NCBI GenBank assembly: GCA_021159225.1
Contig: JAGGSE010000232.1
Span: 23,015-87,014 of the forward strand
DNA: 64,000 bases
Direction: 5' to 3'
Source: a bacterium
Lineage (GTDB): Bacteria > Patescibacteriota > Minisyncoccia > Minisyncoccales > JAGGSE01
Shown: one piece after another, positions 5,982-47,862 of the stretch
Layout: each line of letters begins with the position of its first letter
How positions within the stretch are numbered: position 1 is the first letter of the stretch
Notes under the pieces: generated by a model
The model's input: the letters and a program-made list of their open reading frames with translations, nothing else
Told to the model about the DNA's origin: nothing
The model's database searches: none
Made by a program: the position numbers and the translations under genes

Positions 5982-7121
5982 ATGGAACTCGTAGAGTTTA
6001 AGGGTCGTAAAGGAATTTGGATTACTTACAAGGGCCGCAAGATCTTTATCCCTGAGGAAAGAATTCATCAACGAGAGTTGGGGTCACGTTCCCGTCTTGA
6101 TCCAAAGATGAAAGTCCTCGGAGGTATCACTTTAGCAACTTTAGCCGCTTACTTTTTAAAACCCGGTACGCCCATTTCTGAACTTTTTCGCAATAAAAGG
6201 TTTGTCGTGATCGCTAAACACCCAAATCCCACTCCCTCAATGAGAGAGAAGTTTTATGACATGATCACGTCGGCAATAATGGGGATGCGTGTAGTTCGTC
6301 CCAAAGCGGGCGCTAAACTTCCCAAAACTGCAGGCGTTGTTCATACCTGGTCGAAAGAAGCCTTTAAGATGAAACTTCCTAAGATTCAAGACTATGACTT
6401 GATGTCTGCTATTGACGATAAAGCGGTATTTCCAAAGCTGTTCAAGGACGACCCTAAAATTGTTCCTCAAACCTTCTTACTTCGTGAGTTTCACAGTCTT
6501 GAATCCGCACGCTATGCGTTCCAACGTGCTGGGAAGGGATTTGTGATTAAACCGCGCATTGGCTCACTTTCGAAGGAACTCCCTACTCATGAGTGGAGTG
6601 ACAAACGTTTGATGAAATATATTGAACAGCACGGTGGTCCTAATAATGTGATCATACAAGAAATGTTACCTTTTAGAAATGAGTTTCGTGTTCACTATGT
6701 GAATGGGAAGGTTTACTCTATTACACATCGTCGTTTTCCTGATCCTTTCCGTAAAATTTACAATAAAATCTTTTATCGATTCGGAATGGAGGGTGGTTCT
6801 TCTATTCCAGTGCTCAACCCTGTGAAACGTAAACGACTTAAGGAGTTTGTGACTCAAGCTATGAAACTATATGAGAAGAACGCCCATGTAGGGTTTGACA
6901 TCGTCGAATTACCTGACGGTTCCTTCCGATTTATTGAAGGAAACCCTGTTCCAGGTAGTTTAATGAACCCTGTTATTGCCAGGAAGTTACACAAGACTGT
7001 CACTGGAGTATGGACTAATGACTTACGCGCCGTTGCTCTAGCTGGAGGCGCGGCGGGTTTATGGTGGGCAGGAGAAGGAGTTTCCGAAGTACGGAAGAAG
7101 GAGAAGCAGCTGTGGGTGTAG
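5982..7121 (+). CDS. ATP-grasp ligase (RimK/GshB-like) with N-terminal WITYKGRKIFI motif and hydrophobic segments
   Basis: ATP-grasp signatures are FVIKPRIGSLSK, VIIQEMLPFRNEFRVHYVNGKVYSI and GFDIVELPDGSFRFIEGNPVPGS. Hydrophobic stretches are GGITLATLAAYFL and AVALAGGAAGLWWAG. Confidence 0.65.
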   Translation: MELVEFKGRKGIWITYKGRKIFIPEERIHQRELGSRSRLDPKMKVLGGITLATLAAYFLKPGTPISELFRNKRFVVIAKHPNPTPSMREKFYDMITSAIMGMRVVRPKAGAKLPKTAGVVHTWSKEAFKMKLPKIQDYDLMSAIDDKAVFPKLFKDDPKIVPQTFLLREFHSLESARYAFQRAGKGFVIKPRIGSLSKELPTHEWSDKRLMKYIEQHGGPNNVIIQEMLPFRNEFRVHYVNGKVYSITHRRFPDPFRKIYNKIFYRFGMEGGSSIPVLNPVKRKRLKEFVTQAMKLYEKNAHVGFDIVELPDGSFRFIEGNPVPGSLMNPVIARKLHKTVTGVWTNDLRAVALAGGAAGLWWAGEGVSEVRKKEKQLWV

Positions 7122-7495
7122 GAAAACACGTGTTGATTGACGTGTTTGAGGTGCCTTTTGAAGTTTTAGATAATGAGAAGTTGGTTCTTCAGTGTTTGAT
7201 TCGGGCCGCTAGTAAGGCCGGCGCAACCATACTTCATTCATTCGTTCATCATTTTGAACCTCACGGGGTAAGTTGTGTGGTTGTGATCTCTGAGTCTCAC
7301 TTTTCTATCCATACTTGGCCTGAACGACTTTACGCGGCCGTTGATTTGTTCACTTGCGGCGATTCCGTTGATTTAGATGTAGCGGTTCAGGAGATTCTTC
7401 AGTTTCTTAAAGGTAATCCTAAAGTTTTAGTCTTGGAGAGGGGGGATGTACATGATCGCCGATTGGGGACTTCACCTGATTTTAGATTTGTATGA
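7112..7495 (+). CDS. speH: S-adenosylmethionine decarboxylase proenzyme, small bacterial/archaeal class
   Basis: AAGGAG lies 9 nt before GTG 7112. GKHVLIDVFE...VVVISESHFSIHTWPERLYAAVDLFTCG contains the Glu-Ser self-processing site and the HTWPE and FTCG signatures. Confidence 0.8.
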   Translation: MGVGKHVLIDVFEVPFEVLDNEKLVLQCLIRAASKAGATILHSFVHHFEPHGVSCVVVISESHFSIHTWPERLYAAVDLFTCGDSVDLDVAVQEILQFLKGNPKVLVLERGDVHDRRLGTSPDFRFV

Positions 7496-7823
7496 TTGTG
7501 ATGAGTTCCTTATTTCTAGTAAGGGCAAACTTAGGGAATTCGTATTCGAACTTTGTGATATTCTTGATGTGAAAAGGTACGGTGACCCTATAATTGAGTG
7601 GTTTGGTAACGGCCCTTCTGAAGGATACACTCTTGTTCAGTTAATAGAGACGTCTCTGGTATCAGGACATTTTGCTCCTTCTAGCCGGACTGCTTACATT
7701 GATGTGTTTAGTTGTAAATTTTTTGACCCGATTAAGGTTCAGGAGTACATTGGAGGTTTCTTTAAAGCTAAGAAGGTTGATTCTACCCTTCTTGAAAGGG
7801 GGTCGAAGTTACGTGAAGTATAA
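7446..7823 (+). CDS. AdoMetDC-like paralog with altered processing site
   Basis: It aligns by eye with the upstream gene: GLHLILDLYDC...LVQLIETSLVSGHFAPSSRTAYIDVFSC...LLERG. ES-SH is replaced by ETS, and HTWPE is lost. Confidence 0.6.
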   Translation: MYMIADWGLHLILDLYDCDEFLISSKGKLREFVFELCDILDVKRYGDPIIEWFGNGPSEGYTLVQLIETSLVSGHFAPSSRTAYIDVFSCKFFDPIKVQEYIGGFFKAKKVDSTLLERGSKLREV

Positions 7824-9012
7824 GATAACATTTCTGGGTTCTAAGGGTATGATTGAGGAAAGTTCCCCTCATCACAAACTGAGAACAGGTATTGTAGTCG
7901 AGACTCGCAGAGCGCGTTTCCAAATTGACTGTGGTGAAGAGGAGTTCTTTGATAACCTTAAGGACGTGGATTTTTTGTATGTAAGTCATTGTTATGATGA
8001 GAAGACTGAAGTTTTTACTAATCGTGGCTGGAAGAGGTTTACTGAGTTAAGTAGTTCGGATTACGTCGCGACATTGGATGAGGACGATCGATTAGTGTTT
8101 GAGAAGCCTATAGATTATATTGAGCAAGATTACACTGGGTTAATGTATTACTTGAGTACGGATTTTTTGAATATGATGGTGACTCCTAATCACAATTTGT
8201 ATATTTCGGAGAACTTTGATGACCCTTCCTTTTCTCTTATCCCTGCCGCGAGGTGTTTTGGGCGCCCTAAGATGTTTACGTGCTCTTTTAAATGTGAACA
8301 ACACGATACTTCTCTGGCACAAGCAGTTTTTTCTGACAGTCGTTCCTCTACCGCTAAGTCAGTAACCTCCGGTAGTCAAGAGTCCTGGGTTCCTTACGAC
8401 GGGAAAGTTTACTGTGTTACTTTACCCGAGTACACTAGGCATATACTGTTGACTCGCCGTGAGGGTAAAGTGTGCTTTTCCGGGAACTCACACCCAGATC
8501 ATGTAAGTGGCTTAAAACACAAGGAAATTCCGACGACGTTGGTGTCTACGTCGCTCGTTCGACGTCAATTAGTCCGTAATTGGAAGGTCACTCCTACTCT
8601 TTTTTCTTCACTTCCTTTTGAGTACGAAGATGTGTCGTTAAAAGCTGTTTCTTGTTTTCACTCTATTCGATGTCCTATGTGGGGTGTTGTAATAAATAAC
8701 GAATTGGGTATCTTTACGGATGTTATACGACCACGTGCTGGCTGGGGGATTCTCAAGGGACTCCGAGTTTACATTGGTGATGGCTCCGCGATTAACCATC
8801 CCATAATCCGCGTTAAGGAAAAGGGAGGAGAACCGTTCGGGCACACTTGTATGAAATCTCAACTCCGATATGCTTCTCAATTGAATTGGCAAACAGTTGT
8901 TTTTACTCATCTTGGCCGCCAGCCTGTTTTGAAAGGTGATGAGAGAGTGAGAGAAATTCTCGGTGTGGAGGATTTAATTATTGCGAAGGATGGACTTACA
9001 ATCGAAGTTTGA
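7813..9012 (+). CDS. metallo-beta-lactamase-fold hydrolase interrupted by a mini-intein
   Basis: GTG 7813 gives VKYKITFLGSKG (an MBL-type N-terminus). LYVSH / intein / SHPDHVSG restores HxHxDH, and later His (CFHS), Asp (IFTDV) and His (FTHLG) motifs are present. Confidence 0.75.
   Translation: MKYKITFLGSKGMIEESSPHHKLRTGIVVETRRARFQIDCGEEEFFDNLKDVDFLYVSHCYDEKTEVFTNRGWKRFTELSSSDYVATLDEDDRLVFEKPIDYIEQDYTGLMYYLSTDFLNMMVTPNHNLYISENFDDPSFSLIPAARCFGRPKMFTCSFKCEQHDTSLAQAVFSDSRSSTAKSVTSGSQESWVPYDGKVYCVTLPEYTRHILLTRREGKVCFSGNSHPDHVSGLKHKEIPTTLVSTSLVRRQLVRNWKVTPTLFSSLPFEYEDVSLKAVSCFHSIRCPMWGVVINNELGIFTDVIRPRAGWGILKGLRVYIGDGSAINHPIIRVKEKGGEPFGHTCMKSQLRYASQLNWQTVVFTHLGRQPVLKGDERVREILGVEDLIIAKDGLTIEV
7990..8487 (+). 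mobile_element. mini-intein (166 codons, no endonuclease domain) in the MBL-fold gene
   Basis: It has Cys1 (CYDEKTEVFTNRGWK), block B TPNH, and C-terminal KVYCVTLPEY...VCFSGN followed by Ser+1. It is in frame, and its removal recreates a conserved host motif. Confidence 0.8.
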
Positions 9013-14572: not shown

Positions 14573-17500
14573 GTGGAGAGACAACTTGAGAAGAAGGAGA
14601 AGGAACAACAGGTTAAGGAGCGATTAGTTGGAGAGACTTCGATCACTGCAGGAACTTTCGCAAGTTTGGTTACTTCTCTTTCCGCCTCGCAACTCCGTCA
14701 AATCTATAAAGAGACTAATGTTGTGAGGCGGTGTGTTGACCATATTGCGAGTTCTGTTGCGGACCTTCCGCGAGAGTATGATGTAAAGTTTGGTTTGAAG
14801 AAAAGTGAAGTAATCGATCTTATTTTTGTGCGCGAGACTATAACTGGAGAGACTTTTCGAGATGTGTTAATCGCTTTGACAGTGGATTTGTTGGTGTTGA
14901 ACAAAGGTGTGTTAGTACCTTTGAAGACATTTGGCGGAAGGTTAACCGGATTTACGGCACGCGATGCAGCCACTTTTTCTCCAGTGTATGAGAAAGACGG
15001 CAGGCTTCGTGGGTTCATTCAACAAGTCGGCTTGGGTAAGGTGTATAAGTTTCGCCCAGATGAGTTAGTGTACATTCAACTTATTCCTAAAACTTACACT
15101 GCTACTGGAGGGTCTATCTTAGAGTCTCTTACTTATGAAGTTACGAGCTTGTTAAAGAACTTAGTGAAAAGCGATCCTGAATCTAGGAAGCCTATCGGGA
15201 CATTTATTTTTCCGGAGAGTTTGGACGAGGCAGTTGTTAATAGGTTTCAAGAGGACTTAACCTCGTTAGTATCTGGAGGTAAAGTGAAAATCCCCGTGGT
15301 ATGGGGCGCTGGTAAAGGGGAGTGGATCGAGTTGGTTAAACAATTTGACATTCAGATGGTTGCTACGTTCTTGGATCGCTTAGATTGGCTAGTTCGGAGC
15401 GCTTTTGGATTTGTGCCTCCTGGAAGTAGTTTACTTCAGTCACGACCTAACGAAGATTTGATGTATTCTACCTTAGTCCCTGTGGTTGCTCGGGCGATCC
15501 AGAATCGACTGAATCGGTTTCTTAAACCTTATGGAGTTACTTTTAGTTTTAAGATTCCTCCTGCACACTCGTTGCAACGTATTATTGAAGGGACTAAGTC
15601 AGGGTTGATCTCACCTAATGAGGCCCGTCAGTTTATGTACTTACCACCGGTTAAAGGCGGCGATCAGTTGTCAGTTATGCAGCCTCAAGGTTTAACTCCT
15701 GTAGGGAAGAGTGGGCAACAATCTCCTGTGGTACCTCTCTCGGACGCTAAACAAGATACAGATATTACTCGCTCGCTTTCTATAGAAGAAGTGAAACAGC
15801 TTAGGAATCTCTCTCTTTTGTCCGATGAGAAGGTAGCACGGTTTGTTCTTAGGAGAATTAAGTTGCTGAAATCGATGCAAGAGGAGTTAAGAGAGGCAGT
15901 TCTGGATTATCGTTCTTCTTTTGAAGAGAAGGTGATGTTGCGTCAGGATACCCCTGCTTTACCTTCTTATGTGCCTTTCTTACTACGAGTAGAAGGGATC
16001 ATTGATAATTATGAGGCCCAGTCGATTGCGCTGGGTTATGAACGCGTGCTCCAGTTTTGGAACAGACGCGAGTTCGATAAGGATCTGATTGACGCTGAGA
16101 TTGCTGAACACGATCGACGACTTCGTCGAGAGTCTATTCGGAGTTGGAAAGAGCGTTTAGATTCTATTCACAATGAAGCAAAAAGAGGTGAGTGGGATCA
16201 AGTTAAAAAAGCTCTTGACAATTTTATACGCGCGATTATTGCCGCCGCAGGGTTTGTCACTTTGTTTGCGAATCTCCCTCTTGTACTTGTGTCTAAGTTT
16301 TTTGAGGAGACACAAGGAGTGCTCTTACGCTGGGTGGGCATATCTGATGATGTTACATGTTATGATGAAGCAACTAAAGTGTTGACGGATCGGGGGTGGA
16401 AGTTCTTTAAGGATTTGGATGGTACGGAGAGGTTGTTGAGTATTAACCCTGATGATTTGACTCAGGTTGAGTGGCTTAAACCTGTTGCCTATCAGACGTT
16501 TGAGTACGATGGTGAGATGATTCATTTCGAGGGCTATCAAACGGATCTACTCGTGACACCTGATCATCAGTGTTTTGTGTATGATAATGGAAGACTTCGG
16601 AAAGTTCGCGCAGGAGAGCTGACTCAATTTGCGAAGGTTTCTTTCTACCATGGTGTTCCCGTCGATGTTGCTGACGTGTCTAGTATTTCCTGTAGTGAAG
16701 CAGAAGTTCGCCTTTCTTACTACAAGGGGAAGGTCTACGACGTGACTCTTCCTAAATGGCACACTCTTTACATCATGCGCAATGGGAAGTGTATGTGGAG
16801 TGGTAATTGCGAAGACTGTGCAGCTCTTCAAGGGCGCGTTTTTAAACCATCCACGCTTGAACTGCTTCAAACTTGGCCCGGTTATGGTGTGCGTTGTGGC
16901 CATAACTGTAGGTGTGCCCTTGAACCTGTTTCTAATATTACGCAAGCAAGTGTTAACGAGTGGATCGGTAAAGTTATCAAGTTTAGGAATTTGCACGTCC
17001 CTCTAAAGGAAGCAGCGCTTGTTTATTCTGACGTAATCGAACATATCGATAAGAAGATCGCAGAAGCTCTCAAAAAGAACCCTCACTTACGGGAGCCTTC
17101 GTACGTTGCTTTATTTAAGGAAATCCGATTGCGCGAGACTTTAACCCAACCTAAATACGATGCTATACGAAATATACTCGAAATCCCCGCCTCTTTTACT
17201 GAGGAGCAGATTCGTTCAGCTTTTGTCGATGCAGTCGCCCTGAACGTCCTGTTACGTCAGAACTTTCAGTATCCTAGCTCACCTTTCGTCTCTGAGATAA
17301 TGTCTATAATGGAGCGGGCCAGGAAAGTGCTTTGGAACGAGCAATTAAGTAAGCTTTTACCTTCAGAGTTGAAAGAGTCTTGGTTGGAAGGTGATTTCGC
17401 TCCTTTTGAGAAATTGTCACTTAAGCTGTTTGATATTCCAGTTAAGGCTTACTTTGATCCCAGAGAGTTTTTTACTTACATGTTCCGGGCGTCCATTTTT

Positions 17501-18841
17501 AGCCCTCATCGAGAGGATATAGTAGGGATGCCCGCTTTTCGAGAACTCCTGGCAACCCATGTGTGGTCCCCAACTACTTATGAGAATTGGCTTAACCGTG
17601 TTTATAAGGCCCGTTCCGCCCCTTGGCGGGCCACGTTAACTCCTGATAGAGTACTTACTCGACTGGAATACGTTGACTCAGAGTTCCGTGATAGATTGGT
17701 AGAAATCCTTAAGAGTTATCCGATGTTACGAGTTCCATCTTTTTGGGATGGGTTGAAGGGAATTAAGTTGTCAGATGTATCTCGCTACGACGCGTCTTAT
17801 AGTTTGGAGGGGACCTATGATGAGTTTGTGAAGTCCTTTGTTGGTTCTATCTTGACTACGGGGGATACATTTCAGTTCCTCCACGAGCTAGGCCATCATG
17901 TGTTTGAGCGTCATTTTACCGCGCGCTCTACACTAAGAGACGCGTTTGCTTATGTGTACCGTGAACGAGTTTTGATCCCGTTTTACGAGCAAGTTTTACC
18001 TTATTTGACTGAAAAGGAAGCTCAAAAGTTCATGGGGTACATGAACGAGATGCTTGATGCAAGTGAGAAGAGAACTCTTGGGAGCTTTTTCTTAGGGTCT
18101 CGAGACGTATTTAGAGAGGAAATTTTTAAGCCTATTTATCCTAAGTTACAAGAGGTGATGCGGAACTGGGCACTTCCGATGCGACTGTACTCATTACAGA
18201 GCATCGACGAATCCTTTGCCGAGTTGTTTGCCACTTATATACGTAACCCATCGGTGTTGTACTTCAGTGACCCCGAGTTGTACTTGTTTATGGAATCGCT
18301 CTTGCAGAACCTTGCTGTACGTCCAGAAACTTTGATAAGTAAGCACCCTATGTGGAAACGTGTTTTTGAGGCCCTTTCACGTATAGGTTTAACACGGAGT
18401 CAGATAAAGCAACTTCTTCCGAACCTTCTGTGGGCACATATTAGAGAAGATGTTGGGTTTGAGGAGTTGATAGCGTTGTTCGAGAGCGCTGCTACTGCAG
18501 AGGGCGAAGACTTACGGAAGAAGATAAAAGATATTGTCGAGCGCTTTTTCAAAGCGCCTGAGAAGAAGAAAATGCCTAGTTCTGAGCCGAAACCCAAAGA
18601 GATTAGGAAGCCTCGTAAGGCACCTTCTCTTCCCGAAAAGACTCTAGTAACTCTAAAGGATGTGCGCGAAGTTCTTGAGAAGACTTTGAAGCTCGAAGGT
18701 AGAGACTTAGAGGTTTTTATGGACAAGATTGTTTCGGTTGTAGCTGAAGGTAAGATGAGTATGATTGATGTGTATGAGAAATTGACTTCTTTCAAGACTA
18801 AAAAGGAGGCTTTGAAGTGGCTAGCCGGTTTGAAGAAGTAA
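14573..18841 (+). CDS. portal protein fused to a MuF-like head-morphogenesis domain (intein-interrupted) and an HExxH zincin-like C-terminal region
   Basis: AGGAGG lies 6 nt before GTG 14573. The N-terminal third is portal-like (LRQIYKETNVVRRCVDHIASSVADLP...). After intein removal the MuF signature reads ISDDVT-CEDCAALQGRVF...CGHNCRC. The C-terminal region has FLHELGHHVF ... DESFAELFATYI and ends in a Lys/Glu-rich tail. Confidence 0.75.
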   Translation: MERQLEKKEKEQQVKERLVGETSITAGTFASLVTSLSASQLRQIYKETNVVRRCVDHIASSVADLPREYDVKFGLKKSEVIDLIFVRETITGETFRDVLIALTVDLLVLNKGVLVPLKTFGGRLTGFTARDAATFSPVYEKDGRLRGFIQQVGLGKVYKFRPDELVYIQLIPKTYTATGGSILESLTYEVTSLLKNLVKSDPESRKPIGTFIFPESLDEAVVNRFQEDLTSLVSGGKVKIPVVWGAGKGEWIELVKQFDIQMVATFLDRLDWLVRSAFGFVPPGSSLLQSRPNEDLMYSTLVPVVARAIQNRLNRFLKPYGVTFSFKIPPAHSLQRIIEGTKSGLISPNEARQFMYLPPVKGGDQLSVMQPQGLTPVGKSGQQSPVVPLSDAKQDTDITRSLSIEEVKQLRNLSLLSDEKVARFVLRRIKLLKSMQEELREAVLDYRSSFEEKVMLRQDTPALPSYVPFLLRVEGIIDNYEAQSIALGYERVLQFWNRREFDKDLIDAEIAEHDRRLRRESIRSWKERLDSIHNEAKRGEWDQVKKALDNFIRAIIAAAGFVTLFANLPLVLVSKFFEETQGVLLRWVGISDDVTCYDEATKVLTDRGWKFFKDLDGTERLLSINPDDLTQVEWLKPVAYQTFEYDGEMIHFEGYQTDLLVTPDHQCFVYDNGRLRKVRAGELTQFAKVSFYHGVPVDVADVSSISCSEAEVRLSYYKGKVYDVTLPKWHTLYIMRNGKCMWSGNCEDCAALQGRVFKPSTLELLQTWPGYGVRCGHNCRCALEPVSNITQASVNEWIGKVIKFRNLHVPLKEAALVYSDVIEHIDKKIAEALKKNPHLREPSYVALFKEIRLRETLTQPKYDAIRNILEIPASFTEEQIRSAFVDAVALNVLLRQNFQYPSSPFVSEIMSIMERARKVLWNEQLSKLLPSELKESWLEGDFAPFEKLSLKLFDIPVKAYFDPREFFTYMFRASIFSPHREDIVGMPAFRELLATHVWSPTTYENWLNRVYKARSAPWRATLTPDRVLTRLEYVDSEFRDRLVEILKSYPMLRVPSFWDGLKGIKLSDVSRYDASYSLEGTYDEFVKSFVGSILTTGDTFQFLHELGHHVFERHFTARSTLRDAFAYVYRERVLIPFYEQVLPYLTEKEAQKFMGYMNEMLDASEKRTLGSFFLGSRDVFREEIFKPIYPKLQEVMRNWALPMRLYSLQSIDESFAELFATYIRNPSVLYFSDPELYLFMESLLQNLAVRPETLISKHPMWKRVFEALSRIGLTRSQIKQLLPNLLWAHIREDVGFEELIALFESAATAEGEDLRKKIKDIVERFFKAPEKKKMPSSEPKPKEIRKPRKAPSLPEKTLVTLKDVREVLEKTLKLEGRDLEVFMDKIVSVVAEGKMSMIDVYEKLTSFKTKKEALKWLAGLKK
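16358..16807 (+). mobile_element. mini-intein (150 codons) in the MuF-like domain of the portal fusion
   Basis: It has Cys1 (CYDEATKVLTDRGWK), block B TPDH, and C-terminal KVYDVTLPKW...CMWSGN followed by Cys+1 (the first Cys of CEDC). It is clearly homologous to the intein at 7990-8487. Confidence 0.8.
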
Positions 18842-19473: not shown

Positions 19474-19822
19474 AGATTTTCTTGATCACTCGTTAGACGA
19501 TTTAGAGTCTCCTCCGGTCTTGGGGTTGGGTAAAGCTGCCTCTGAGGACTTACCTAAGCAGGAGGACATTCCATCTGAGGTTGGTTCGCCTGAACAGGAA
19601 GCGATTGATACAATTGCTGAGAGGATAATAGAAGAGTTACGCGGTAATGAAAGCATTAGGCCGAAGAATTGGAGTGACGTTCTCCGTGGTTTGGAATTAG
19701 TATTAAAGTTTAAGCATGAGTTACACGGCAAGCACAAGAAAGGAGAACAGGACCTCGCATACCAAGCTCTTCAGGAGTTTAAGGAAGTGGTAGATGCCTT
19801 CTCGAGATTTGAGTCAAAGTAA
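19457..19822 (+). CDS. acidic protein, possible small terminase subunit (by position only)
   Basis: It lies immediately upstream of, and overlaps, the large terminase gene. No motif was recognised. Confidence 0.3.
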   Translation: MSKKLEDFLDHSLDDLESPPVLGLGKAASEDLPKQEDIPSEVGSPEQEAIDTIAERIIEELRGNESIRPKNWSDVLRGLELVLKFKHELHGKHKKGEQDLAYQALQEFKEVVDAFSRFESK

Positions 19823-21239
19823 GTTCCACATTTCGTTAAAGAAGCTTCGTACTATTTGCCAAAATAGTTTCCTTCACTACTTGATCTTCGTTTTTGGGTT
19901 TCCAGTGTCGGCAATGCATCGAGAGTGGATTGACGCTCTTATGAAGTGTTCTCGAGTTGTGATTGCTGCTCCTCGGGCCCACTCTAAAACTACCATAGTT
20001 TCTATTGCGTATTCGACGTGGTTGATTGGGCGTAACCCCAATATAAGGATTAAGATCATAACTAACTCTATTGACAAGGGTAGAGAGATTTTAGCCGCAG
20101 TTTCGAGTACTCTTCTTTTTAATAAAAGGTACCAGTTTGTTTTTCCTGAGATTAGACCCGCAAAGACACGTTATTGGACGAAGGATAGATTGTATGTGGA
20201 GCGTTCTTTGGTTCTTCGTGATCCTACGATCGAAGCAAGAAGTGTTCTATCTACAGGGGCCGGAGGTAGGTCAGATGTGATAATTGGAGATGACATGGTT
20301 GATAATTTGAACTGCGTTACTGAAGGTTTGCGGAGAAAAGTAAAGGAAGCTTTCTATGATACTTGGATGAATACTCTCGAACCACAAGGGAACCAAGCGG
20401 TAGTTGTTGGTACTATTTGGCATGAAGACGATCTGCTCTCTGAATTGCTCAGGAATAAAGACTGGGAGTTTCGTAAAGTTTGGGCGATAAATGATAACTT
20501 TGACCCTCTATGGCCCCAAGTGTGGTCGCGAGAGAAGCTTTATAAGAAGTGGAAGGAAAACCCTTTGGCTTTCGATAAAGGCTTTCGCCATCGTCCAACA
20601 CGTGTAGATACTGCTCTTTTCCCGCCATCTTCATTTAAACAACGGTCTGATTGGCCTCTTTCTCCAGGGTCTAATCCTCCTGAGTATAACGATGTGGATC
20701 CTTCTCTTATCAAGTGTTACTTTGGGGTGGATATTTCAGCTGGACATGGAGATGATTTTTCGGTGATTTTTGTGGTGCGGGTGAATGCTGAAACTCTAAT
20801 TCGGTGGCCTGTTGAAATAGCTCGGTTGAAGCAACCAGCTCCTGATGTGACCCGCAAGCTCATTCGGATGTACAAGCAGTACCAACCCGAAGTGATTATG
20901 ATTGAGTCAAACGCTACTCAGTCTATGATGCAAGATTGGATTTCTGAAGTAAGTAAATTACCTCTAAAACCGTATTACACAGGCGTTCAAAAGCACTTGA
21001 TTTCGGTAGGGATCCCTTCTCTTAGAGTGGAACTTGATAATAATATGTGGATGATCCCTTCTTGGGATCACCCTCTTGAGTGTAGTTGTTCTTGGTGCCA
21101 ATGGAAAAGAGAGGTACTGTCGTATCCTTATAGTAAGAAAGACGACACTGTTTTTGCTTGGTGGTTTAGTCGTGAAGCAATTAGGCTTTTCCTAGAAGGA
21201 AAGCGAGTAGGCCGCGGATATGCTGTCGTAGAACTCTGA
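19794..21239 (+). CDS. terL: terminase large subunit
   Basis: The Walker A-like motif is AAPRAHSKTT, Walker B is DVIIGDDMVD and the coupling motif is GTIWHEDDL. The C-terminal RNase-H-like nuclease has FGVDISAGHGDDFSVIFVV and IMIESNATQ. Confidence 0.85.
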   Translation: MPSRDLSQSKFHISLKKLRTICQNSFLHYLIFVFGFPVSAMHREWIDALMKCSRVVIAAPRAHSKTTIVSIAYSTWLIGRNPNIRIKIITNSIDKGREILAAVSSTLLFNKRYQFVFPEIRPAKTRYWTKDRLYVERSLVLRDPTIEARSVLSTGAGGRSDVIIGDDMVDNLNCVTEGLRRKVKEAFYDTWMNTLEPQGNQAVVVGTIWHEDDLLSELLRNKDWEFRKVWAINDNFDPLWPQVWSREKLYKKWKENPLAFDKGFRHRPTRVDTALFPPSSFKQRSDWPLSPGSNPPEYNDVDPSLIKCYFGVDISAGHGDDFSVIFVVRVNAETLIRWPVEIARLKQPAPDVTRKLIRMYKQYQPEVIMIESNATQSMMQDWISEVSKLPLKPYYTGVQKHLISVGIPSLRVELDNNMWMIPSWDHPLECSCSWCQWKREVLSYPYSKKDDTVFAWWFSREAIRLFLEGKRVGRGYAVVEL

Positions 21240-21301: not shown

Positions 21302-22192
21302 GTGGGAGAGAATATCTCGGTAACTTCCTATACTTTTAAGAAGTACCTCAGCCCTTTTTTAGTTTGGTGTGAAGGTAAATTCGACTACATTCTTCACGTT
21401 CATTGGGCTAGCGTCCTCCACGGAGACTTGCGAATGGGTTACTGTGGCGACCCCAATAACGTGATTGGAGTTACCTTGTTCATTTACAAGCAAGGTGCTG
21501 TCAAACGCCGCCCCAATGGACCGAAGGGTTGGACAGAGTTCTTGAAAGTTGTTCGAGACCCTAAGAACTTCAAACTAAACTTCAAAACAGGAGAAATTCA
21601 GGGCCAGCGCAGCTTAGCGGCAACTGTTAAGTTACCGGAAGCTAAGGCATGGATGAGAGTGAAAAAGTACATCTCTCCTCCAGGCACTATTGGCGCTCGA
21701 GTTTTGCGCAAATGGTGGTCCTATATGACGATTGTTGATAAAGGTAAAGTGGAACATTTAACTCGGAAACTGGACGAGTTTGAGTTTTACTTTACTGAGG
21801 GTAAGGCTTTTAGAGGACGGTACATTCTTCGACCTTTTGGTAAGAACTTTACCTTCTTTACTGCCAGTGCCCGACCCGTACTTGTTGGGACGACCCAGAA
21901 GCTGGAAGAGGGTAAGGAAATTAGTGGTTTTCTTTGGATTAAAGCAAAGAACCAGACCCCGTATGTTCTTTCTACACGAGCTGTAAAGAAACGATTTATT
22001 TCCCCTGTGCATTTTAGTGGGCTGCCCCAGGCACTGAAGGAGAGAATTCCAAGAGCTTTTCAGTATTGGACTATAGAGTCAAAAGCGAAACGTTTAAAGG
22101 TGCGGGATAGTTTGGTGTTAGCTCTGAAGAGCCAGAGACAGTATCAGTACTTGGAAGAGGGGGCTTGGCATAAGGTCAGTTTGAAAGTGTGA
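21302..22192 (+). CDS. protein with N-terminal LigD 3'-phosphoesterase-like domain
   Basis: YILHVHWASVLHGDLRMG matches the H.A..LH.DLR metal-site signature. ISPPGTIGARV...IVDKGKVE and FYFTEGKAFRGRYILRPF match the later G..GA / D.G / G..GRY.L.R blocks of the LigD PE domain. The alignment is by eye. Confidence 0.5.
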   Translation: MGENISVTSYTFKKYLSPFLVWCEGKFDYILHVHWASVLHGDLRMGYCGDPNNVIGVTLFIYKQGAVKRRPNGPKGWTEFLKVVRDPKNFKLNFKTGEIQGQRSLAATVKLPEAKAWMRVKKYISPPGTIGARVLRKWWSYMTIVDKGKVEHLTRKLDEFEFYFTEGKAFRGRYILRPFGKNFTFFTASARPVLVGTTQKLEEGKEISGFLWIKAKNQTPYVLSTRAVKKRFISPVHFSGLPQALKERIPRAFQYWTIESKAKRLKVRDSLVLALKSQRQYQYLEEGAWHKVSLKV

Positions 22193-22269
22193 CCGTGGAC
22201 CCCTTGCCCAAATTTAGGTTCCCTGTGACTTTATTATGGAAAAAATTTGGAACAGGAAGGAGGTGCAAG

Positions 22270-23415
22270 ATGAGGTTTGAGAACGGCTTGTTTCAGTTAA
22301 ATCCAGAATTCATTCGCGCTCCAGCTGAGGTTTCCGAGAAGATTGCTAATCCGGGGGAGTTGGTGATCGCAGGTTATGCTACAACTTATGATAAAGGTTT
22401 GGATAATGCTGTCATATCTAGGAAGGCATTGTCTAACGCTGCTGAGGACCTGAAGAAGAGAAGCACAGTGTTGTTCAATCATGATCAAAATCGCCCTATT
22501 GGCCGCATTCATGAGGTGAAGTTGGATAATAAGGGGTTGTTTACAATTGCTGTAATTGATAAGACAGAGCAAGAGATTCAGGAGAAGATCAAATCAGGAA
22601 CGTTGAACAAGTTCTCGATCCGCGGACGGATTTTAGCTTCTCATGAAGAGTGGGATGAGAATACTGGAAGGTCCACGTCAGTTGTTGATAACTTGAAGTT
22701 GCTTGAGGTATCTGTTGTTTCCGTACCTGCTGTTGATGAAGCAGAGATTCAATCGTGGTATGTACAAAGGAGTGCGAGCGATAATGACTTCGTCCCCTTA
22801 CAAAGGGATGTTAATTCAGAACAAGGAGGTGACAAAATGAGTGATAAGGAAATGAAAGAGCTAGAGGAGCAGGAGCTTGAGGAGAAGGAAGAGGAAGCTC
22901 TTGAAGAAGAGGAAGGAACTGAGGAGTTGATTGAGGCAGTGGAATCCAGTCAGCTTGAACTGTTACTAGACCTTGATGAGCGTGTTTCTGCGTTGGTTGA
23001 GCGGGCGGACGAACTTCTTAAGGCCGCGAATTTAGATGCTGTTATGAAGAAGTTGGATGAGGCGATGGAGATGCTTAAGAAGATTTTGGACAAGTTGGAA
23101 AAATATCCTTACCCCTATCCTTATCCCTACCCTGCAAAAAAGTCTGCAGAGATTGAAGAGAGTGTAGAGGAGCTCGATCTTGAAGAGAATGCGGAGGAGC
23201 CGATGCAAGAAGTGCTCGAAAGTGTTCGGGCTCTTACTGATGAAGTTAAGGAGTTGAAGGAAACTGTAGTTGTTCGTGGCGAGAGGTCTGAAGAGGCTCC
23301 CGAGGATGCAATCCGGCAGTTTCTCGAGTCGGAAGAGTACAAAAACGCAGATCCTTCTGAGAAGATGAGGATGCTGTGGGATTTCACAGAAAAGTATAAA
23401 GGAGGTGAAAAGTAA
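22270..23415 (+). CDS. prohead serine protease (HK97/S78-type) fused to an acidic coiled-coil scaffold
   Basis: GGAGG lies 6 nt before ATG 22270. The protease signatures are LVIAGYATTYD...VLFNHDQNRPIGRI...KFSIRGRI...LLEVSVVSVPAVDEAEI. A Glu-rich helical region follows, containing KYPYPYPYPYPAKK. Confidence 0.8.
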   Translation: MRFENGLFQLNPEFIRAPAEVSEKIANPGELVIAGYATTYDKGLDNAVISRKALSNAAEDLKKRSTVLFNHDQNRPIGRIHEVKLDNKGLFTIAVIDKTEQEIQEKIKSGTLNKFSIRGRILASHEEWDENTGRSTSVVDNLKLLEVSVVSVPAVDEAEIQSWYVQRSASDNDFVPLQRDVNSEQGGDKMSDKEMKELEEQELEEKEEEALEEEEGTEELIEAVESSQLELLLDLDERVSALVERADELLKAANLDAVMKKLDEAMEMLKKILDKLEKYPYPYPYPYPAKKSAEIEESVEELDLEENAEEPMQEVLESVRALTDEVKELKETVVVRGERSEEAPEDAIRQFLESEEYKNADPSEKMRMLWDFTEKYKGGEK

Positions 23416-29291: not shown

Positions 29292-30498
29292 TGAGTTTCG
29301 GGCCTAAGTGACACTGGGCCCGTAAAACCTCTGCTGATCAACGGGGAAACACAATGGTATCCACTCAGCTAAATGAGATTTTAGATGGATTAATTTTCAG
29401 TGATGGGCATATTGCTTATTGTAAGGCTGGTGACTATAGGTTCGAGTTGGGGACGACCAAGCGTTTGTACGCAGAGCAAGTTTGTAACCTTCTTCGTCCT
29501 GTTATTTCCTGTTCTATTAGAGAACAAGTACGTATTGGATTTGGGAAGAAATTTATCTCTTACAGAGTTGTTGGATATAAAGCTCCTGTTATGAAGAATC
29601 TTCACTATCGTTGGTATGATGATAAAAAGAAAAAGCTTCCCAAAGATTTTAGATGGACGCCTACTACTTTGAACGTTGCTTATTGTGGTGATGGTACTGT
29701 TATTGAGAATAGCCCGACTATGTGCTTAAATAGTTGGGCGGTTCCCGAGGTGAAAGAGATAGTTAGGTGCTTTGAAGAGTTGGGCTTGTATGGGACGGTT
29801 GTCCAAACCCCAACAGGACCGATTTTTAGGTTACATCAAGATTGTGCCCTAGATTTCTTCGAGTACATAGGAGACCCACTAATTCCGTTTCACTCTTATA
29901 AGTGGATTACCGTTGTCAACCCCCAGCAAGCAGTTCGCGCGACTCTGTGGGACGATGACCTAGCTCAAAAGGTTGCGAGGTGTATTAAGAAGATTATGAT
30001 TTTACGCGTTTGGGGAGGTTCGAAGGAACGGCGGTACTTGTCGTACTTTCCTGAGTTAGTCGTAATGGTTAATGATAAAGACGTTAAAGATGCCCTTCAG
30101 AGAATCAGAACTTCAAGGAAGAAAGGTGAGGTTGTAGTTAGAGGTCGACAAGCGAAACGTGTTTTAGAAAGGGTCCATTTGTTTCTTCCGGACGATAAAC
30201 GAATGTTAGCTACAATTGCGTTAGCTTTGCCTCTTGGGCGGAGGAAGAAAGATTTGAAGGAAGTTCTATATCAGTTTTTCTGGACGAAATTTAATGAATT
30301 AAATCCGCCCGAGAGAAGACGGGGACCCAAAAGAGAGTTGAATAGCGAACTGCGGCTGCAGAGACTGAGCGTAGAGGACACTAACCTCTTTCAGGATCTG
30401 GTTAGTGTATACGACAGTCCGACCCCTACGGTGACGTAGGGAAGTAGTTGTACTACTTGCCCGAAAGGGTCAAGAAAAATAACAGGTTAAAGCGGGTG
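29292..30498 (+). mobile_element. hypothetical self-splicing (group I-type) intron carrying the homing endonuclease gene
   Basis: This is inference only. An orphan RBS plus 16-codon ORF lies upstream, and the tail tube ORF has no RBS. A U precedes the proposed 5' splice site and a G precedes the proposed 3' splice site. Hairpins, including a GAAA tetraloop, flank the endonuclease ORF. Confidence 0.25.
29354..30439 (+). CDS. LAGLIDADG-family homing endonuclease
   Basis: Two LAGLIDADG-type motifs are present: LDGLIFSDGHI and LNVAYCGDGTV. The C-terminal region is basic. Confidence 0.75.
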   Translation: MVSTQLNEILDGLIFSDGHIAYCKAGDYRFELGTTKRLYAEQVCNLLRPVISCSIREQVRIGFGKKFISYRVVGYKAPVMKNLHYRWYDDKKKKLPKDFRWTPTTLNVAYCGDGTVIENSPTMCLNSWAVPEVKEIVRCFEELGLYGTVVQTPTGPIFRLHQDCALDFFEYIGDPLIPFHSYKWITVVNPQQAVRATLWDDDLAQKVARCIKKIMILRVWGGSKERRYLSYFPELVVMVNDKDVKDALQRIRTSRKKGEVVVRGRQAKRVLERVHLFLPDDKRMLATIALALPLGRRKKDLKEVLYQFFWTKFNELNPPERRRGPKRELNSELRLQRLSVEDTNLFQDLVSVYDSPTPTVT

Positions 30499-47408: not shown

Positions 47409-47862
47409 GAATTGTTATTATTATCAGTTAGCACAGAAGTGGGTTAATACCCCTTTCAAGCTCGGGGGTACTTCTCTTAAGGGAATTGACTGCTTTGGAG
47501 TCTCATTACGTATAGCACAAGAGAGTGGTTTGATTTCGGAGGATCAGTTCAAAGTAATTCATACTACAACGGTACTTAGGATTCTAAGGAAAGAGGGTGT
47601 ACATAAATTCAAAACGTTTATTCAGGAAGGGAGTGGTGGACGACTTGTTGAAACAACTAACCCAGCAGACTTGAAGTGTGGGGACTGGGTGTTAAGAATT
47701 ATAGGAAGAAATTTTGACGTTGAGAGTGCTCTGTTTGTAGGAGGTCAGTTTATTACATCTTTCCCGAAAGAGTGTGTTACTATCACACCTGTGTTTAAGT
47801 TTGACTTTGCAATCTCGTGGGGAGGATTTTCGTTTAGGAAATGGCGGTCTTTGCAACTCTAG
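47398..47862 (+). CDS. NlpC/P60-like protein, copy 2 (tandem paralog)
   Basis: GTG 47398 gives VKCENCYYYQLAQKWVNTPFKLGG...KGIDCFGVS...KCGDWVL, which is collinear with copy 1. Confidence 0.45.
   Translation: MKCENCYYYQLAQKWVNTPFKLGGTSLKGIDCFGVSLRIAQESGLISEDQFKVIHTTTVLRILRKEGVHKFKTFIQEGSGGRLVETTNPADLKCGDWVLRIIGRNFDVESALFVGGQFITSFPKECVTITPVFKFDFAISWGGFSFRKWRSLQL

What the first reader, a model, noticed from the sequence alone, without database searches (positions are those of the whole stretch)
7990..8487. Mini-intein splits the HxHxDH metal-binding motif of an MBL-fold hydrolase
The ORF reads ...DFLYVSH | CYDEKTEV...VTPNHNLY...KVYCVTLPEY...VCFSGN | SHPDHVSGL.... Deleting the 166 in-frame codons joins LYVSH to SHPDH, giving H-S-H-P-D-H, the signature motif of the metallo-beta-lactamase superfamily. 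The later His/Asp/His motifs of the fold are also present.

The insert has Cys1, a TxxH block B and a terminal Asn with Ser+1. It is too short to hold a homing-endonuclease domain. Its penultimate residue is Gly and not the usual His.

Inteins typically sit in catalytic motifs of replication and packaging proteins. I am not aware of one in an MBL-fold enzyme, but I cannot check this here.
Basis: partly seen in the sequence, partly recalled or inferred. Interest (0 to 1): 0.75.

Follow-up and report, generated by a model that had tools for sequence, protein, structure and literature searches.

The report
Mini-intein inside a phage metallo-hydrolase gene
A tailed-phage gene for a metal-dependent phosphodiesterase-type enzyme is interrupted, exactly inside its metal-binding motif, by a genuine 166-residue self-splicing protein element (a mini-intein); this is a new host protein for an otherwise ordinary, well-known kind of element.

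Summary
The gene 7813-9012 (+) encodes a 399-aa precursor. Codons 60-225 (7990-8487) form an in-frame insert, C1...TPNH...VYC...SGN|S.

Syntenic orthologs in related phage contigs are exactly 233 aa. They align without a gap except for these 166 residues and read SH|THSDH or SH|KHPDH across the site.

The insert belongs to a large phage and giant-virus intein family:
- tblastn gives E=1e-17 to Lak-A1, and it also matches the inteins of CP-P1201 ThyX, Staphylococcus phage NAMPT, RNR and TerL.
- A family profile hits solved inteins (6ZGQ, E=1e-9).

The missing penultimate His is the family norm: Gly in 242 of 263 members. A Gly-penultimate phage intein has been shown to splice.

Other MBL homologs carry the same intein at the same site, some with a LAGLIDADG endonuclease. 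This copy is therefore most likely an endonuclease-less derivative.

dN/dS against a diverged allele is 0.035 for the extein, 0.03-0.06 for the splicing modules and 0.31 for the linker, so both gene and intein are maintained.

The extein has a PhnP/RNase Z/Apyc1-like MBL fold. Apyc1 membership is not supported.

Verdict: a real, probably active class-1 mini-intein in a host family for which I found no published intein. It is mechanistically ordinary.

The parts
7813..9012 (+). Precursor gene: 399 codons plus stop, GTG start. Encodes N-extein, mini-intein and C-extein.
   Evidence: ORF and sequence. The identical 399-aa product is called on 12 public contigs. A 93%-identical allele, P0001, lies in syntenic contigs.
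7813..7989 (+). N-extein, 59 codons. Contains MBL motif 1 (D39) and ends at H59, the first His of HxHxDH.
   Evidence: Alignments A1, A4 and A5. H59 and D39 are invariant in 94 relatives.
7990..8487 (+). Mini-intein, 166 codons, with no homing endonuclease.
   Evidence: Exact gap relative to the 233-aa orthologs. tblastn hits to inteins in phage ThyX, NAMPT, RNR, TerL, DNA polymerase and Lak-A1. Family profile hits solved inteins: 6ZGQ E=1.2e-9, 2JMZ, 7CFV, RecA mini-intein. hmmsearch with the family profile gives 155 bits over the full length (the profile includes this sequence).
7990..8244 (+). N-terminal splicing region (intein residues 1-85), covering blocks A and B. Cys1 is at 7990-7992, Thr65 at 8182-8184 and His68 at 8191-8193.
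   Evidence: Among family members, C1 is present in 287 of 287 and the block B His in 294 of 296. dN/dS is 0.056 against allele L009.
8245..8394 (+). Linker (intein residues 86-135) occupying the position where related MBL inteins carry a LAGLIDADG endonuclease. It evolves fast.
   Evidence: Alignment A5 against P0008, P0009 and P0013, which hit LAGLIDADG_3 at E=3e-10 to 4e-7. dN/dS is 0.31. Residual similarity to the endonuclease is weak, p about 0.013 for one of three comparisons.
8395..8487 (+). C-terminal splicing region (intein residues 136-166), covering blocks F and G. Cys142 (F:4) is at 8413-8415, His151 is near F:13, Gly165 is penultimate, and Asn166 is at 8485-8487.
   Evidence: Family counts: F:4 Cys 253 of 277, Gly 242 of 263, Asn 250 of 263. 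dN/dS is 0.034.
8488..9009 (+). C-extein, 174 codons. Starts with Ser+1 (8488-8490), followed by H227, P, D229 and H230 (8491-8502). Also holds H283, D303, H344 and H366.
   Evidence: Every intein-bearing MBL allele whose C-terminal junction is present has Ser at +1. Intein-less alleles have T, K, A or G there.

Best explanation
The insert is a bona fide class-1 mini-intein, a member of a large phage and giant-virus intein family, sitting in the HxHxDH metal-binding loop of a phage MBL-fold phosphodiesterase-type enzyme.

**Shown**
- The insert is homologous to inteins.
- Its boundaries are exact relative to empty-site orthologs.
- All catalytic positions are intact: Cys1, Thr65/His68, Cys142, His151, Asn166 and Ser+1.
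- The splicing modules are under purifying selection.

**Inferred**
- After translation the 399-aa precursor cannot assemble its metal site, because H59 is separated from H227/D229/H230 by 166 residues.
- The intein then removes itself by the canonical four steps: (1) an N-S acyl shift at the H59-C1 bond; (2) transesterification to the Ser+1 hydroxyl; (3) Asn166 cyclisation, probably helped by the block F His in place of the missing penultimate His; (4) an O-N shift.
- This yields a 233-aa enzyme reading ...LYVSH-SHPDH..., plus the free 166-aa intein.
- The intein most likely descends from the LAGLIDADG-endonuclease-bearing inteins found at the same site in other members of this MBL family. 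Having lost the endonuclease, it is now inherited vertically with the gene.
For: **Empty and occupied sites**
- Orthologs of 233 aa sit at the same place in syntenic phage contigs (...methyltransferase, two AdoMet_dc genes, MBL...). The only alignment gap is the 166 residues.

**Homology to inteins**
- tblastn E=1e-17 to Lak-A1 and 1e-11 to the CP-P1201 thymidylate synthase gene annotated as containing an intein. NAMPT, RNR, TerL and nucleotidyltransferase inteins also match.
- The family profile hits solved inteins and hedgehog Hint domains.

**Family-wide residues**
- C1 287 of 287; block B His 294 of 296; F:4 Cys 253 of 277; penultimate Gly 242 of 263; Asn 250 of 263; +1 Ser, Thr or Cys in all 254.

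**Same-site relatives**
- P0007 (mini), P0008, P0009 and P0013 (LAGLIDADG_3 above threshold) carry an intein at the same site. They are the closest relatives of this intein, at 80-124 bits against 78 bits or less for inteins in other hosts.

**Selection**
- dS is about 0.5-0.6 in both intein and extein. dN/dS is 0.035 for the extein, 0.056 and 0.034 for the splicing regions, and 0.31 for the linker.

**Literature**
- A Gly-penultimate phage intein splices, and mutating Gly to His slows it (PMC5050341).
- Cys is the second most common residue at F:4, and natural mini-inteins can be as small as 134 aa (PMC4031507).

**Extein fold**
- The P0002 model has pLDDT 96.9. Foldseek gives E=4e-13 to PhnP-family 6B9V and 3G1P; RNase Z and Apyc1 7U2R and 7T28 also match.
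Against: - Splicing has not been observed. All evidence is comparative.
- Curated models do not reach threshold: Pfam Hint 17.7 bits against 29.7, TIGR01445 13 against 24.5. The annotated CP-P1201 and Staphylococcus phage inteins of the same family also fail these models.
- AlphaFold2 did not fold the intein part (pLDDT 20-30, with a 7-sequence alignment).
- The intein alone finds no solved structure by phmmer.
- The direction of change (endonuclease loss rather than gain) is inferred. Residual similarity of the linker to the endonuclease is weak.
Confidence: 0.87

Rival explanations
1. The insert is a decayed, splicing-dead intein relic. It is intein-derived but no longer splices, so the MBL gene is effectively inactivated, or it works as an insertion-bearing protein.
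For: - The endonuclease has been lost.
- The penultimate His is absent.
- Curated intein models score below threshold.
- There are no experimental data.
Against: - All catalytic residues are intact.
- The splicing modules have dN/dS of 0.03-0.06 and the extein 0.035 at dS of about 0.5. A dead insert in a dead gene would not show this.
- The same intact arrangement persists in diverged alleles and on 12 contigs.
- Gly at the penultimate position is the family norm and is compatible with fast splicing.
- A 166-residue block between H59 and H227 would prevent metal-site assembly, so conservation of the extein implies that the block is removed.
Confidence: 0.06
2. The insert is an intein, but it does not splice by the plain class-1 route. 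The invariant block F Cys142, with His68 and Ser164 (G:5), resembles the class-3 Cys-His-Thr triad. Cys142 could carry the N-extein as a branched intermediate. Alternatively it could form a disulfide with Cys1, making maturation of the enzyme redox- or metal-conditional.
For: - F:4 Cys is present in 253 of 277 family members, G:5 is Ser, Thr or Cys in 235 of 265, and the penultimate residue is not His.
- Class 3 inteins use Cys F:4, His B:10 and Thr G:5 (PMC7664689, PMC4031507).
Against: - Cys1 is invariant (287 of 287), whereas class 3 inteins lack an N-terminal nucleophile.
- Trp at B:12 is absent: this intein has Leu, and the family has Met or Leu.
- Cys is simply the second most common F:4 residue among ordinary inteins.
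- The second intein of this family in the same window has Asp at F:4.
Confidence: 0.07
3. The insert is an ordinary lineage-specific insertion or accessory domain of the MBL protein, unrelated to inteins.
For: No curated domain model passes threshold on the insert.
Against: - It is significantly homologous to many inteins in unrelated host proteins. In most of the listed matches the best match starts within a few residues of Cys1.
- Its boundaries coincide exactly with the nucleophile residues.
- The same-site relatives carry LAGLIDADG endonucleases.
Confidence: 0.01

Closest known systems
Phage and giant-virus class-1 intein family that includes CP-P1201 Thy1 (thymidylate synthase), Staphylococcus Twort-like phage NAMPT and RNR inteins, the Vibrio phage PWH3a-P1 TerL mini-intein, and Lak megaphage inteins
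   Same: - Same signature: C1, W14, VTPNH block B, (V)YC block F, RRNGK..(W)SGN ending, and Ser, Thr or Cys at +1.
- 28-51% identity to this intein.
- Insertion into a catalytic motif of the host protein.
- Both mini and LAGLIDADG-bearing forms exist.
   Different: - The host protein is an MBL-fold hydrolase and the site is H|xHxDH. None of the phage records matched has an MBL host.
- There is a small insertion (EYTR) in block F that is shared only with the other MBL inteins.
Same-site inteins in metagenomic MBL homologs (P0007, P0008, P0009, P0013; fragments P0021, P0087)
   Same: - Identical insertion point (SH|C...N|SHPDH).
- They are the closest relatives of this intein in both splicing halves.
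   Different: - P0008, P0009 and P0013 are 355-370-aa inteins with a LAGLIDADG_3 endonuclease. P0008 and P0009 end in SMN.
- P0007 is a 141-aa mini-intein whose deletion boundaries differ.
- The host exteins are only 34-51% identical to this one.
Mycobacteriophage Bethlehem gp51 (RDF) intein (Kelley et al. 2016, PMC5050341)
   Same: It is a phage class-1 intein with Cys1 and a penultimate Gly. It was shown experimentally to splice efficiently, and the G-to-H mutation slows splicing.
   Different: It has a different host protein and carries a homing endonuclease. I did not compare its sequence directly with this intein.
AceL NrdHF-1-1 intein (PDB 6ZGQ) and other solved mini-inteins (Mja KlbA 2JMZ, Spl DnaX 7CFV, Mtu RecA mini-intein)
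   Same: HINT-fold splicing domains matched by the family profile (E=1.2e-9, 1.3e-4, 2.8e-4 and about 1e-2).
   Different: The relationship is distant. This intein alone does not match them by phmmer. Several of them have the canonical His-Asn ending.
PhnP / ElaC (RNase Z) / YhfI / Apyc1 clade of MBL-fold phosphodiesterases (the extein)
   Same: - HxHxDH plus the downstream His, Asp and His ligands.
- About 235-250 aa, single domain.
- Foldseek TM 0.64-0.74 and E=1e-13 to 1e-8 for the ortholog model.
- Distant cellular relatives are named phosphoribosyl 1,2-cyclic phosphodiesterase or RNase BN by their sources.
   Different: - Sequence identity to any solved member is only 10-19%.
- The substrate is unknown.
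- The Apyc1 Pfam model matches only 2 of 94 family members at E<=1e-3 and does not match the protein itself.

Membership tests
Intein (HINT superfamily, class 1) | In-frame insertion that is absent from orthologs, with boundaries such that its removal restores a contiguous conserved host sequence | tested here: met
   The 233-aa orthologs P0002, P0003 and P0004 align with one gap of exactly 166 residues. HxHxDH is restored.
Intein (HINT superfamily, class 1) | Cys or Ser nucleophile at intein position 1 | tested here: met
   Cys1 (TGT 7990-7992). C1 is present in 287 of 287 family members.
Intein (HINT superfamily, class 1) | Block B TxxH | tested here: met
   T65-P-N-H68. Thr is present in 283 of 296 and His in 294 of 296 family members.
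Intein (HINT superfamily, class 1) | C-terminal Asn (rarely Gln or Asp), followed by Ser, Thr or Cys at +1 | tested here: met
   Asn166 and Ser+1. In the family, Asn is present in 250 of 263 and Gln in 12; +1 is Ser 192, Thr 43, Cys 19.
Intein (HINT superfamily, class 1) | Penultimate His (G:6). This is common but not obligatory. | tested here: not met
   The residue is Gly165. This is the family norm (242 of 263). Splicing without this His is documented (PMC5050341; Chen et al. 2000 as cited in PMC4031507). His151 lies near F:13 and is the inferred substitute.
Intein (HINT superfamily, class 1) | Significant sequence similarity to established inteins or HINT domains | tested here: met
   tblastn E=1e-17 to 1e-4 against annotated phage inteins. 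Profile against the PDB: 6ZGQ 1.2e-9, 2JMZ, 7CFV, hedgehog 1AT0, RecA mini-intein.
Intein (HINT superfamily, class 1) | Curated Pfam or NCBIfam intein model above its gathering score | tested here: not met
   Hint scores 17.7 bits (cut-off 29.7) and TIGR01445 scores 13 (cut-off 24.5). The annotated CP-P1201, Staphylococcus phage and Vibrio phage inteins of this family also give no Hint-type hit, so the models cover this family poorly.
Intein (HINT superfamily, class 1) | HINT fold | tested here: inconclusive
   The AlphaFold2 model of the precursor has pLDDT 20-30 over the intein, from a 7-sequence alignment.
Intein (HINT superfamily, class 1) | Autocatalytic protein splicing that gives ligated exteins plus free intein | not testable with these tools
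   Only indirect support: purifying selection on the splicing modules and the extein.
Mini-intein | No homing-endonuclease domain between the splicing halves | tested here: met
   The intein is 166 aa and gets no LAGLIDADG or HNH hit. Relatives at the same site have an additional block of about 200 aa that hits LAGLIDADG_3.
Class 3 intein | No N-terminal nucleophile, plus the Trp(B:12)-Cys(F:4)-Thr(G:5) triplet | tested here: not met
   Cys1 is present and B:12 is Leu. Only F:4 Cys (C142) and a hydroxyl residue at G:5 (Ser164) match.
Metallo-beta-lactamase-fold superfamily (extein) | HxHxDH motif plus the downstream His, Asp and His metal ligands | tested here: met
   After in-silico splicing the motif reads H59-S-H-P-D-H. 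H117, D137, H178 and H200 are invariant in 94 relatives.
Metallo-beta-lactamase-fold superfamily (extein) | MBL alpha-beta/beta-alpha fold, or curated family models | tested here: met
   The ortholog P0002 (82% identical) models at pLDDT 96.9. Foldseek gives 177 PDB hits at E<=1e-3, and all 50 listed are MBL-fold-type proteins. Lactamase_B_2 is below threshold on the protein itself (15.7 against 27) but hits 93 of 94 relatives at E<=1e-3.
Apyc1 (anti-Pycsar cyclic-nucleotide phosphodiesterase) | Match to the Apyc1 family model PF23023, or closest structural similarity to Apyc1 | tested here: not met
   PF23023 gives only 'weak' precomputed hits. It gives no hit at E<=1 on P0002 or P0003 in my scan and matches 2 of 94 relatives at E<=1e-3. 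Apyc1 structures rank 20th to 39th, behind PhnP, YhfI and RNase Z.
Apyc1 (anti-Pycsar cyclic-nucleotide phosphodiesterase) | Hydrolysis of cCMP/cUMP and inhibition of Pycsar defence | not testable with these tools
   This needs an enzyme assay or an infection assay.

The most novel reading that the evidence does not exclude
The MBL enzyme is a phage counter-defence or nucleotide-signal-degrading phosphodiesterase (Apyc1-like). The intein, placed in its metal-binding loop and carrying two conserved cysteines (Cys1 and Cys142), acts as a post-translational switch. It would make maturation of the enzyme depend on redox state or on Zn2+ availability in the infected cell, rather than being a purely selfish passenger.
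Probability: 0.05. Interest if true: 0.7.

Novelty: new member of a known kind. Interest (0 to 1): 0.33.

Why it matters
**A new host for inteins.** This adds a new host protein family and a new insertion site, the H|xHxDH loop of MBL-fold phosphodiesterases, to the catalogue of natural inteins. It fits the rule that inteins settle in the most conserved catalytic motifs.

**A natural series at one site.** The data hold empty sites, occupied sites with a LAGLIDADG endonuclease, and at least two mini forms that differ in length and linker. This series is useful for studying the homing cycle.

**A possible tool.** The intein is compact: 166 aa, with Cys1, a Gly-Asn ending and Ser+1. Relatives are as small as 141 aa. 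It may be of practical interest for protein engineering.

**Limits.** It does not reveal a new mechanism or a new kind of element.

Tried and rejected
- **Curated models.** Pfam and NCBIfam scans of the insert and the extein gave only sub-threshold hits. They are not decisive, because annotated inteins of the same family also fail them.
- **Word-index search.** The protein search with the intein alone returned nothing. The exhaustive search with the whole precursor was needed.
- **PDB search with the intein alone.** phmmer found no intein. A 31-sequence family profile did.
- **Structure of the precursor.** AlphaFold2 did not resolve the intein.
- **Known phages.** Megablast of 20 kb of the window against GenBank phages found no match.
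- **Apyc1 assignment.** The 'weak' precomputed PF23023 hits suggested it, but rescanning did not support it and the structural ranking did not either.
- **Endonuclease remnants in the linker.** One of three comparisons was marginal (p about 0.013) and the others were at chance level. The result is inconclusive.
- **Free-standing LAGLIDADG ORF.** The ORF at 29354-30439 shows no similarity to the intein endonuclease of P0008, the one relative compared.
- **Class 3 reading.** Rejected on Cys1 and the missing Trp at B:12.
- **Literature.** Searches for a natural intein in an MBL-fold protein or in Apyc1 found only purification tags, split-reporter uses and unrelated mentions.
Full report
**1. Observation**

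The + strand ORF that contains the finding runs to the stop at 9010-9012. Its likely start is GTG 7813, just before the stop of the upstream gene. This gives a 399-aa product. Gene calls on 12 independent public contigs give exactly this protein.

TGT at 7990-7992 encodes Cys and AAC at 8485-8487 encodes Asn. The segment between them is 498 nt, or 166 codons. The junctions read ...DFLYVSH|CYDEKTEV... and ...KVCFSGN|SHPDHVSGL....

**2. The insert is absent from orthologs, with exact boundaries**

I searched with the in-silico spliced protein (233 aa). The hits were:

| Protein | Length | Identity to spliced query | Query coverage |
|---|---|---|---|
| P0002 | 233 aa | 82% | 100% |
| P0003 | 233 aa | 71% | 100% |
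| P0004 | 233 aa | 51% | 99% |
| P0001 | 399 aa | 93-94%, intein-bearing allele | 76% (best local alignment) |

In the alignment the only gap is the 166 residues. It falls between the first His and the next residue of the motif:
- SH|THSDH (P0002)
- SH|THKDH (P0003)
- SH|KHPDH (P0004)
- TH|GHPDH (P0005 and P0006)

P0002 and P0003 sit at the same position of syntenic phage contigs. The order there is DNA ligase on the opposite strand, two glycosyltransferases, a methyltransferase, AdoMet_dc genes, then the MBL gene. The occupied allele P0001 has the same neighbours. The DNA flanks of the occupied site align to the continuous empty site.

IMG/VR holds two more empty alleles and one occupied allele among close relatives.

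**3. The insert is an intein by descent**

*Matches in annotated phages.* tblastn of the 166 residues against GenBank phages gives 177 records. All listed matches start at residue 1. They lie inside genes that are known or typical intein hosts:
- Lak-A1 (51% identity over 74 aa, E=1e-17)
- the Corynebacterium phage P1201 thymidylate synthase, annotated 'contains hypothetical intein'
- Staphylococcus phage NAMPT and RNR
- T5-like phage RNR
- mycobacteriophage nucleotidyltransferase
- DNA polymerase, primase/helicase, portal and methylase genes
- the Vibrio phage PWH3a-P1 large terminase, where a mini-intein of about 146 aa splits the Walker A motif (GGSAG|C...ITGN|SGKS)

*Exhaustive search.* An HMMER search of 1.84 billion representative proteins with the precursor finds 7362 proteins at E<=1e-3. 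In most listed hits the best match begins at query residues 55-60, close to Cys1.

*Family statistics.* From the top 155 proteins I delimited 272 inteins. Of these, 34 are mini forms of 130-200 aa and about 200 are 300-400 aa.

| Position | Residue count |
|---|---|
| Intein residue 1 | Cys 287 of 287 |
| Block B His | 294 of 296 |
| Block F position 4 | Cys 253 of 277 |
| Penultimate residue | Gly 242 of 263 |
| Last residue | Asn 250 of 263 (Gln 12) |
| +1 residue | Ser 192, Thr 43, Cys 19 |

*Solved structures.* A 31-sequence profile of family mini-inteins hits:
- AceL NrdHF-1-1 (6ZGQ), E=1.2e-9
- Mja KlbA (2JMZ), E=1.3e-4
- Spl DnaX (7CFV), E=2.8e-4
- hedgehog Hint (1AT0), E=3e-3
- Mtu RecA mini-intein, about 1e-2

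*Curated models.* Pfam Hint and TIGR01445 stay below threshold. The annotated members of this family fail them as well, so this reflects model coverage and not the sequence.

**4. The missing penultimate His**

Gly at this position is the rule in this family.

Kelley et al. 2016 (PMC5050341) showed that a mycobacteriophage class-1 intein with penultimate Gly splices essentially to completion. They also showed that mutating Gly to His slows it. They note that an upstream block F His can take over the role. This intein has His151 at about F:13.

Mills, Johnson and Perler 2014 (PMC4031507) state that Cys is the second most common residue at F:4 and that natural mini-inteins can be as small as 134 residues.

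The intein is not class 3. It has Cys1, and it has Leu rather than Trp at B:12.

**5. Origin of the mini form**

The exhaustive search also returned other MBL homologs that carry an intein at the identical site:

| Protein | Total length | Intein type | Junctions |
|---|---|---|---|
| P0007 | 385 aa | 141-aa mini-intein | SH\|C...SGN\|SHPDH |
| P0008 | 588 aa | with endonuclease | SH\|C...SMN\|SHPDH |
| P0009 | 600 aa | with endonuclease | SH\|C...SMN\|SHPDH |
| P0013 | 557 aa | with endonuclease | SH\|C...SGN\|SHPDH |

There are also fragments: P0021 and P0087 (N-terminal) and P0010 (C-terminal).

P0008, P0009 and P0013 contain a LAGLIDADG_3 endonuclease above the Pfam threshold.

These MBL inteins are the closest relatives of the window's intein in both splicing halves. 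They score 80-124 bits, against 78 bits or less for inteins in other hosts. They therefore form one allelic group.

The window's linker (residues 86-135) occupies the position of the endonuclease. I infer endonuclease loss, as in the standard homing cycle. Residual similarity of the linker to the endonuclease is only marginal, so the direction of change is not proven. P0007 has different deletion boundaries, which suggests an independent loss.

Every intein-bearing allele whose C-terminal junction is present has Ser at +1. Empty alleles have Thr, Lys, Ala or Gly there.

**6. Is it maintained?**

I compared the window allele with the L009 allele, using 399 aligned codons.

| Region | dN/dS |
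|---|---|
| Extein | 0.035 |
| Intein residues 1-85 | 0.056 |
| Intein residues 86-135 (linker) | 0.31 |
| Intein residues 136-166 | 0.034 |

dS is 0.49 in the extein and 0.62 in the intein.

The intein has therefore diverged together with the gene. Its splicing modules are as constrained as the enzyme, and only the linker is relaxed. This is what is expected if the enzyme is needed and can form only after splicing. It argues against a dead relic.

**7. The host protein**

The spliced sequence, but not the precursor, matches MBL, RNase Z and PRK02113 models across the junction.

A profile search finds 110 relatives. Most are proteins of about 240 aa that their sources name phosphoribosyl 1,2-cyclic phosphodiesterase or RNase BN. 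H59, H61, D63, H64, H117, D137, H178 and H200 are invariant among the 94 relatives aligned.

AlphaFold2 on P0002 with that alignment gives pLDDT 96.9. The Foldseek matches are:

| Structure | E-value | TM-score |
|---|---|---|
| PhnP-family 6B9V | 3.7e-13 | 0.73 |
| E. coli PhnP 3G1P | 9.4e-13 | 0.74 |
| ElaC homologue 1ZKP | 2.1e-12 | 0.66 |
| YhfI 6KNS | 4.5e-12 | 0.72 |
| RNase Z 1Y44 | 8.0e-12 | 0.72 |
| Apyc1 7U2R (rank 20) | 2.6e-10 | 0.64 |
| Apyc1 7T28 (rank 39) | 4.1e-08 | 0.66 |

The insertion point lies in the loop between strand 54-56 and helix 62-68 that carries the metal ligands.

Precomputed annotations list 'weak' hits to the Apyc1 Pfam model. In my scans that model matches none of the close homologs and only 2 of 94 relatives. 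I therefore file the extein as a PhnP/RNase Z-like MBL phosphodiesterase of unknown substrate, not as Apyc1.

**8. Context**

The window is a tailed phage with no close relative in GenBank. PHROG matches give:
- large terminase at 19794-21236
- head protease / major head protein at 22189-23412
- tape-measure protein at 31719-38333
- tail proteins at 47841-50177

**9. Mechanism (inferred)**

The precursor cannot assemble its metal site. Canonical class-1 splicing proceeds through these steps:
1. a Cys1 thioester
2. transfer to Ser+1
3. Asn166 cyclisation
4. an O-N shift

The product is the 233-aa enzyme with H-S-H-P-D-H, plus the free intein.

**10. Novelty**

I found no paper describing a natural intein in an MBL-fold protein or in Apyc1. 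The library does not include InBase or subscription journals, so earlier catalogue entries cannot be excluded.

The element itself is a standard member of a known intein family, and same-site alleles already exist unannotated in public metagenomes. I rate it a new member of a known kind, of modest interest.

Noticed in passing
window 16358-16807 (+), inside ORF 14573-18841: There is a second mini-intein of the same family (150 aa)...DDVT|CYDEATKVLT...VTPDH...KVYDVTLP...RNGKCMWSGN|CEDCAALQGRVF. It scores E=2e-34 against the family profile. Here F:4 is Asp and +1 is Cys. After in-silico splicing, the junction region gives a weak Phage_Mu_F hit (E=4.5e-4) and the N-terminal part gives a weak Phage_portal hit (E=1.6e-4). 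The host therefore looks like a portal/MuF-type fusion protein.
   Followed up: partly
window 29354-30439 (+): This is a free-standing 361-aa ORF that matches a LAGLIDADG homing-endonuclease PHROG (phrog_11023, E=3.5e-20). It shows no detectable similarity to P0008, the endonuclease-bearing MBL intein relative that I compared it with.
   Followed up: partly
window 5982-7823 (+), and the syntenic loci L001, L002 and L009: Directly upstream of the MBL gene lie two tandem, overlapping AdoMet_dc (PF02675) genes at 7061-7495 and 7446-7823 (E=5e-33 and 2e-20). Before them is an ATP-grasp-like ORF at 5982-7121 (weak R2K_3 hit). In the related contigs a methyltransferase and two glycosyltransferases lie upstream of this block. 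The relative L002 also carries QueC. This may be a nucleotide, polyamine or DNA-modification module. The MBL enzyme could belong to it rather than to counter-defence.
   Followed up: partly
L001 1-67 (gene runs over the locus end; JGI 3300033141 contig Ga0366833_1000561): The related phage with the empty MBL site carries an intein (PF14890 Intein_splicing) in its family A DNA polymerase. Its homolog of the 1422-aa protein is 1426 aa, so it probably also carries the second intein. This phage lineage harbours several inteins.
   Followed up: no
proteins P0011-P0155 (not in the window): The intein family combines an invariant Cys1 with Cys at block F position 4 (91%), Ser, Thr or Cys at G:5 (89%) and a non-His penultimate residue (Gly 92%). 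This is a class-3-like Cys-His-Ser/Thr arrangement without the B:12 Trp. Many members occur two or three per protein in proteins of 2000-3700 aa. Junction motifs such as DK[LMF]|...|S[SA]R[YF] recur, which from memory resemble the conserved motif of the RNA polymerase second-largest subunit.
   Followed up: partly
window 7813-7823: The GTG start of the MBL precursor overlaps the end of the upstream AdoMet_dc gene by 11 nt (7813-7823), which suggests translational coupling. In L001 the two genes abut exactly, at 10000 and 10001.
   Followed up: no
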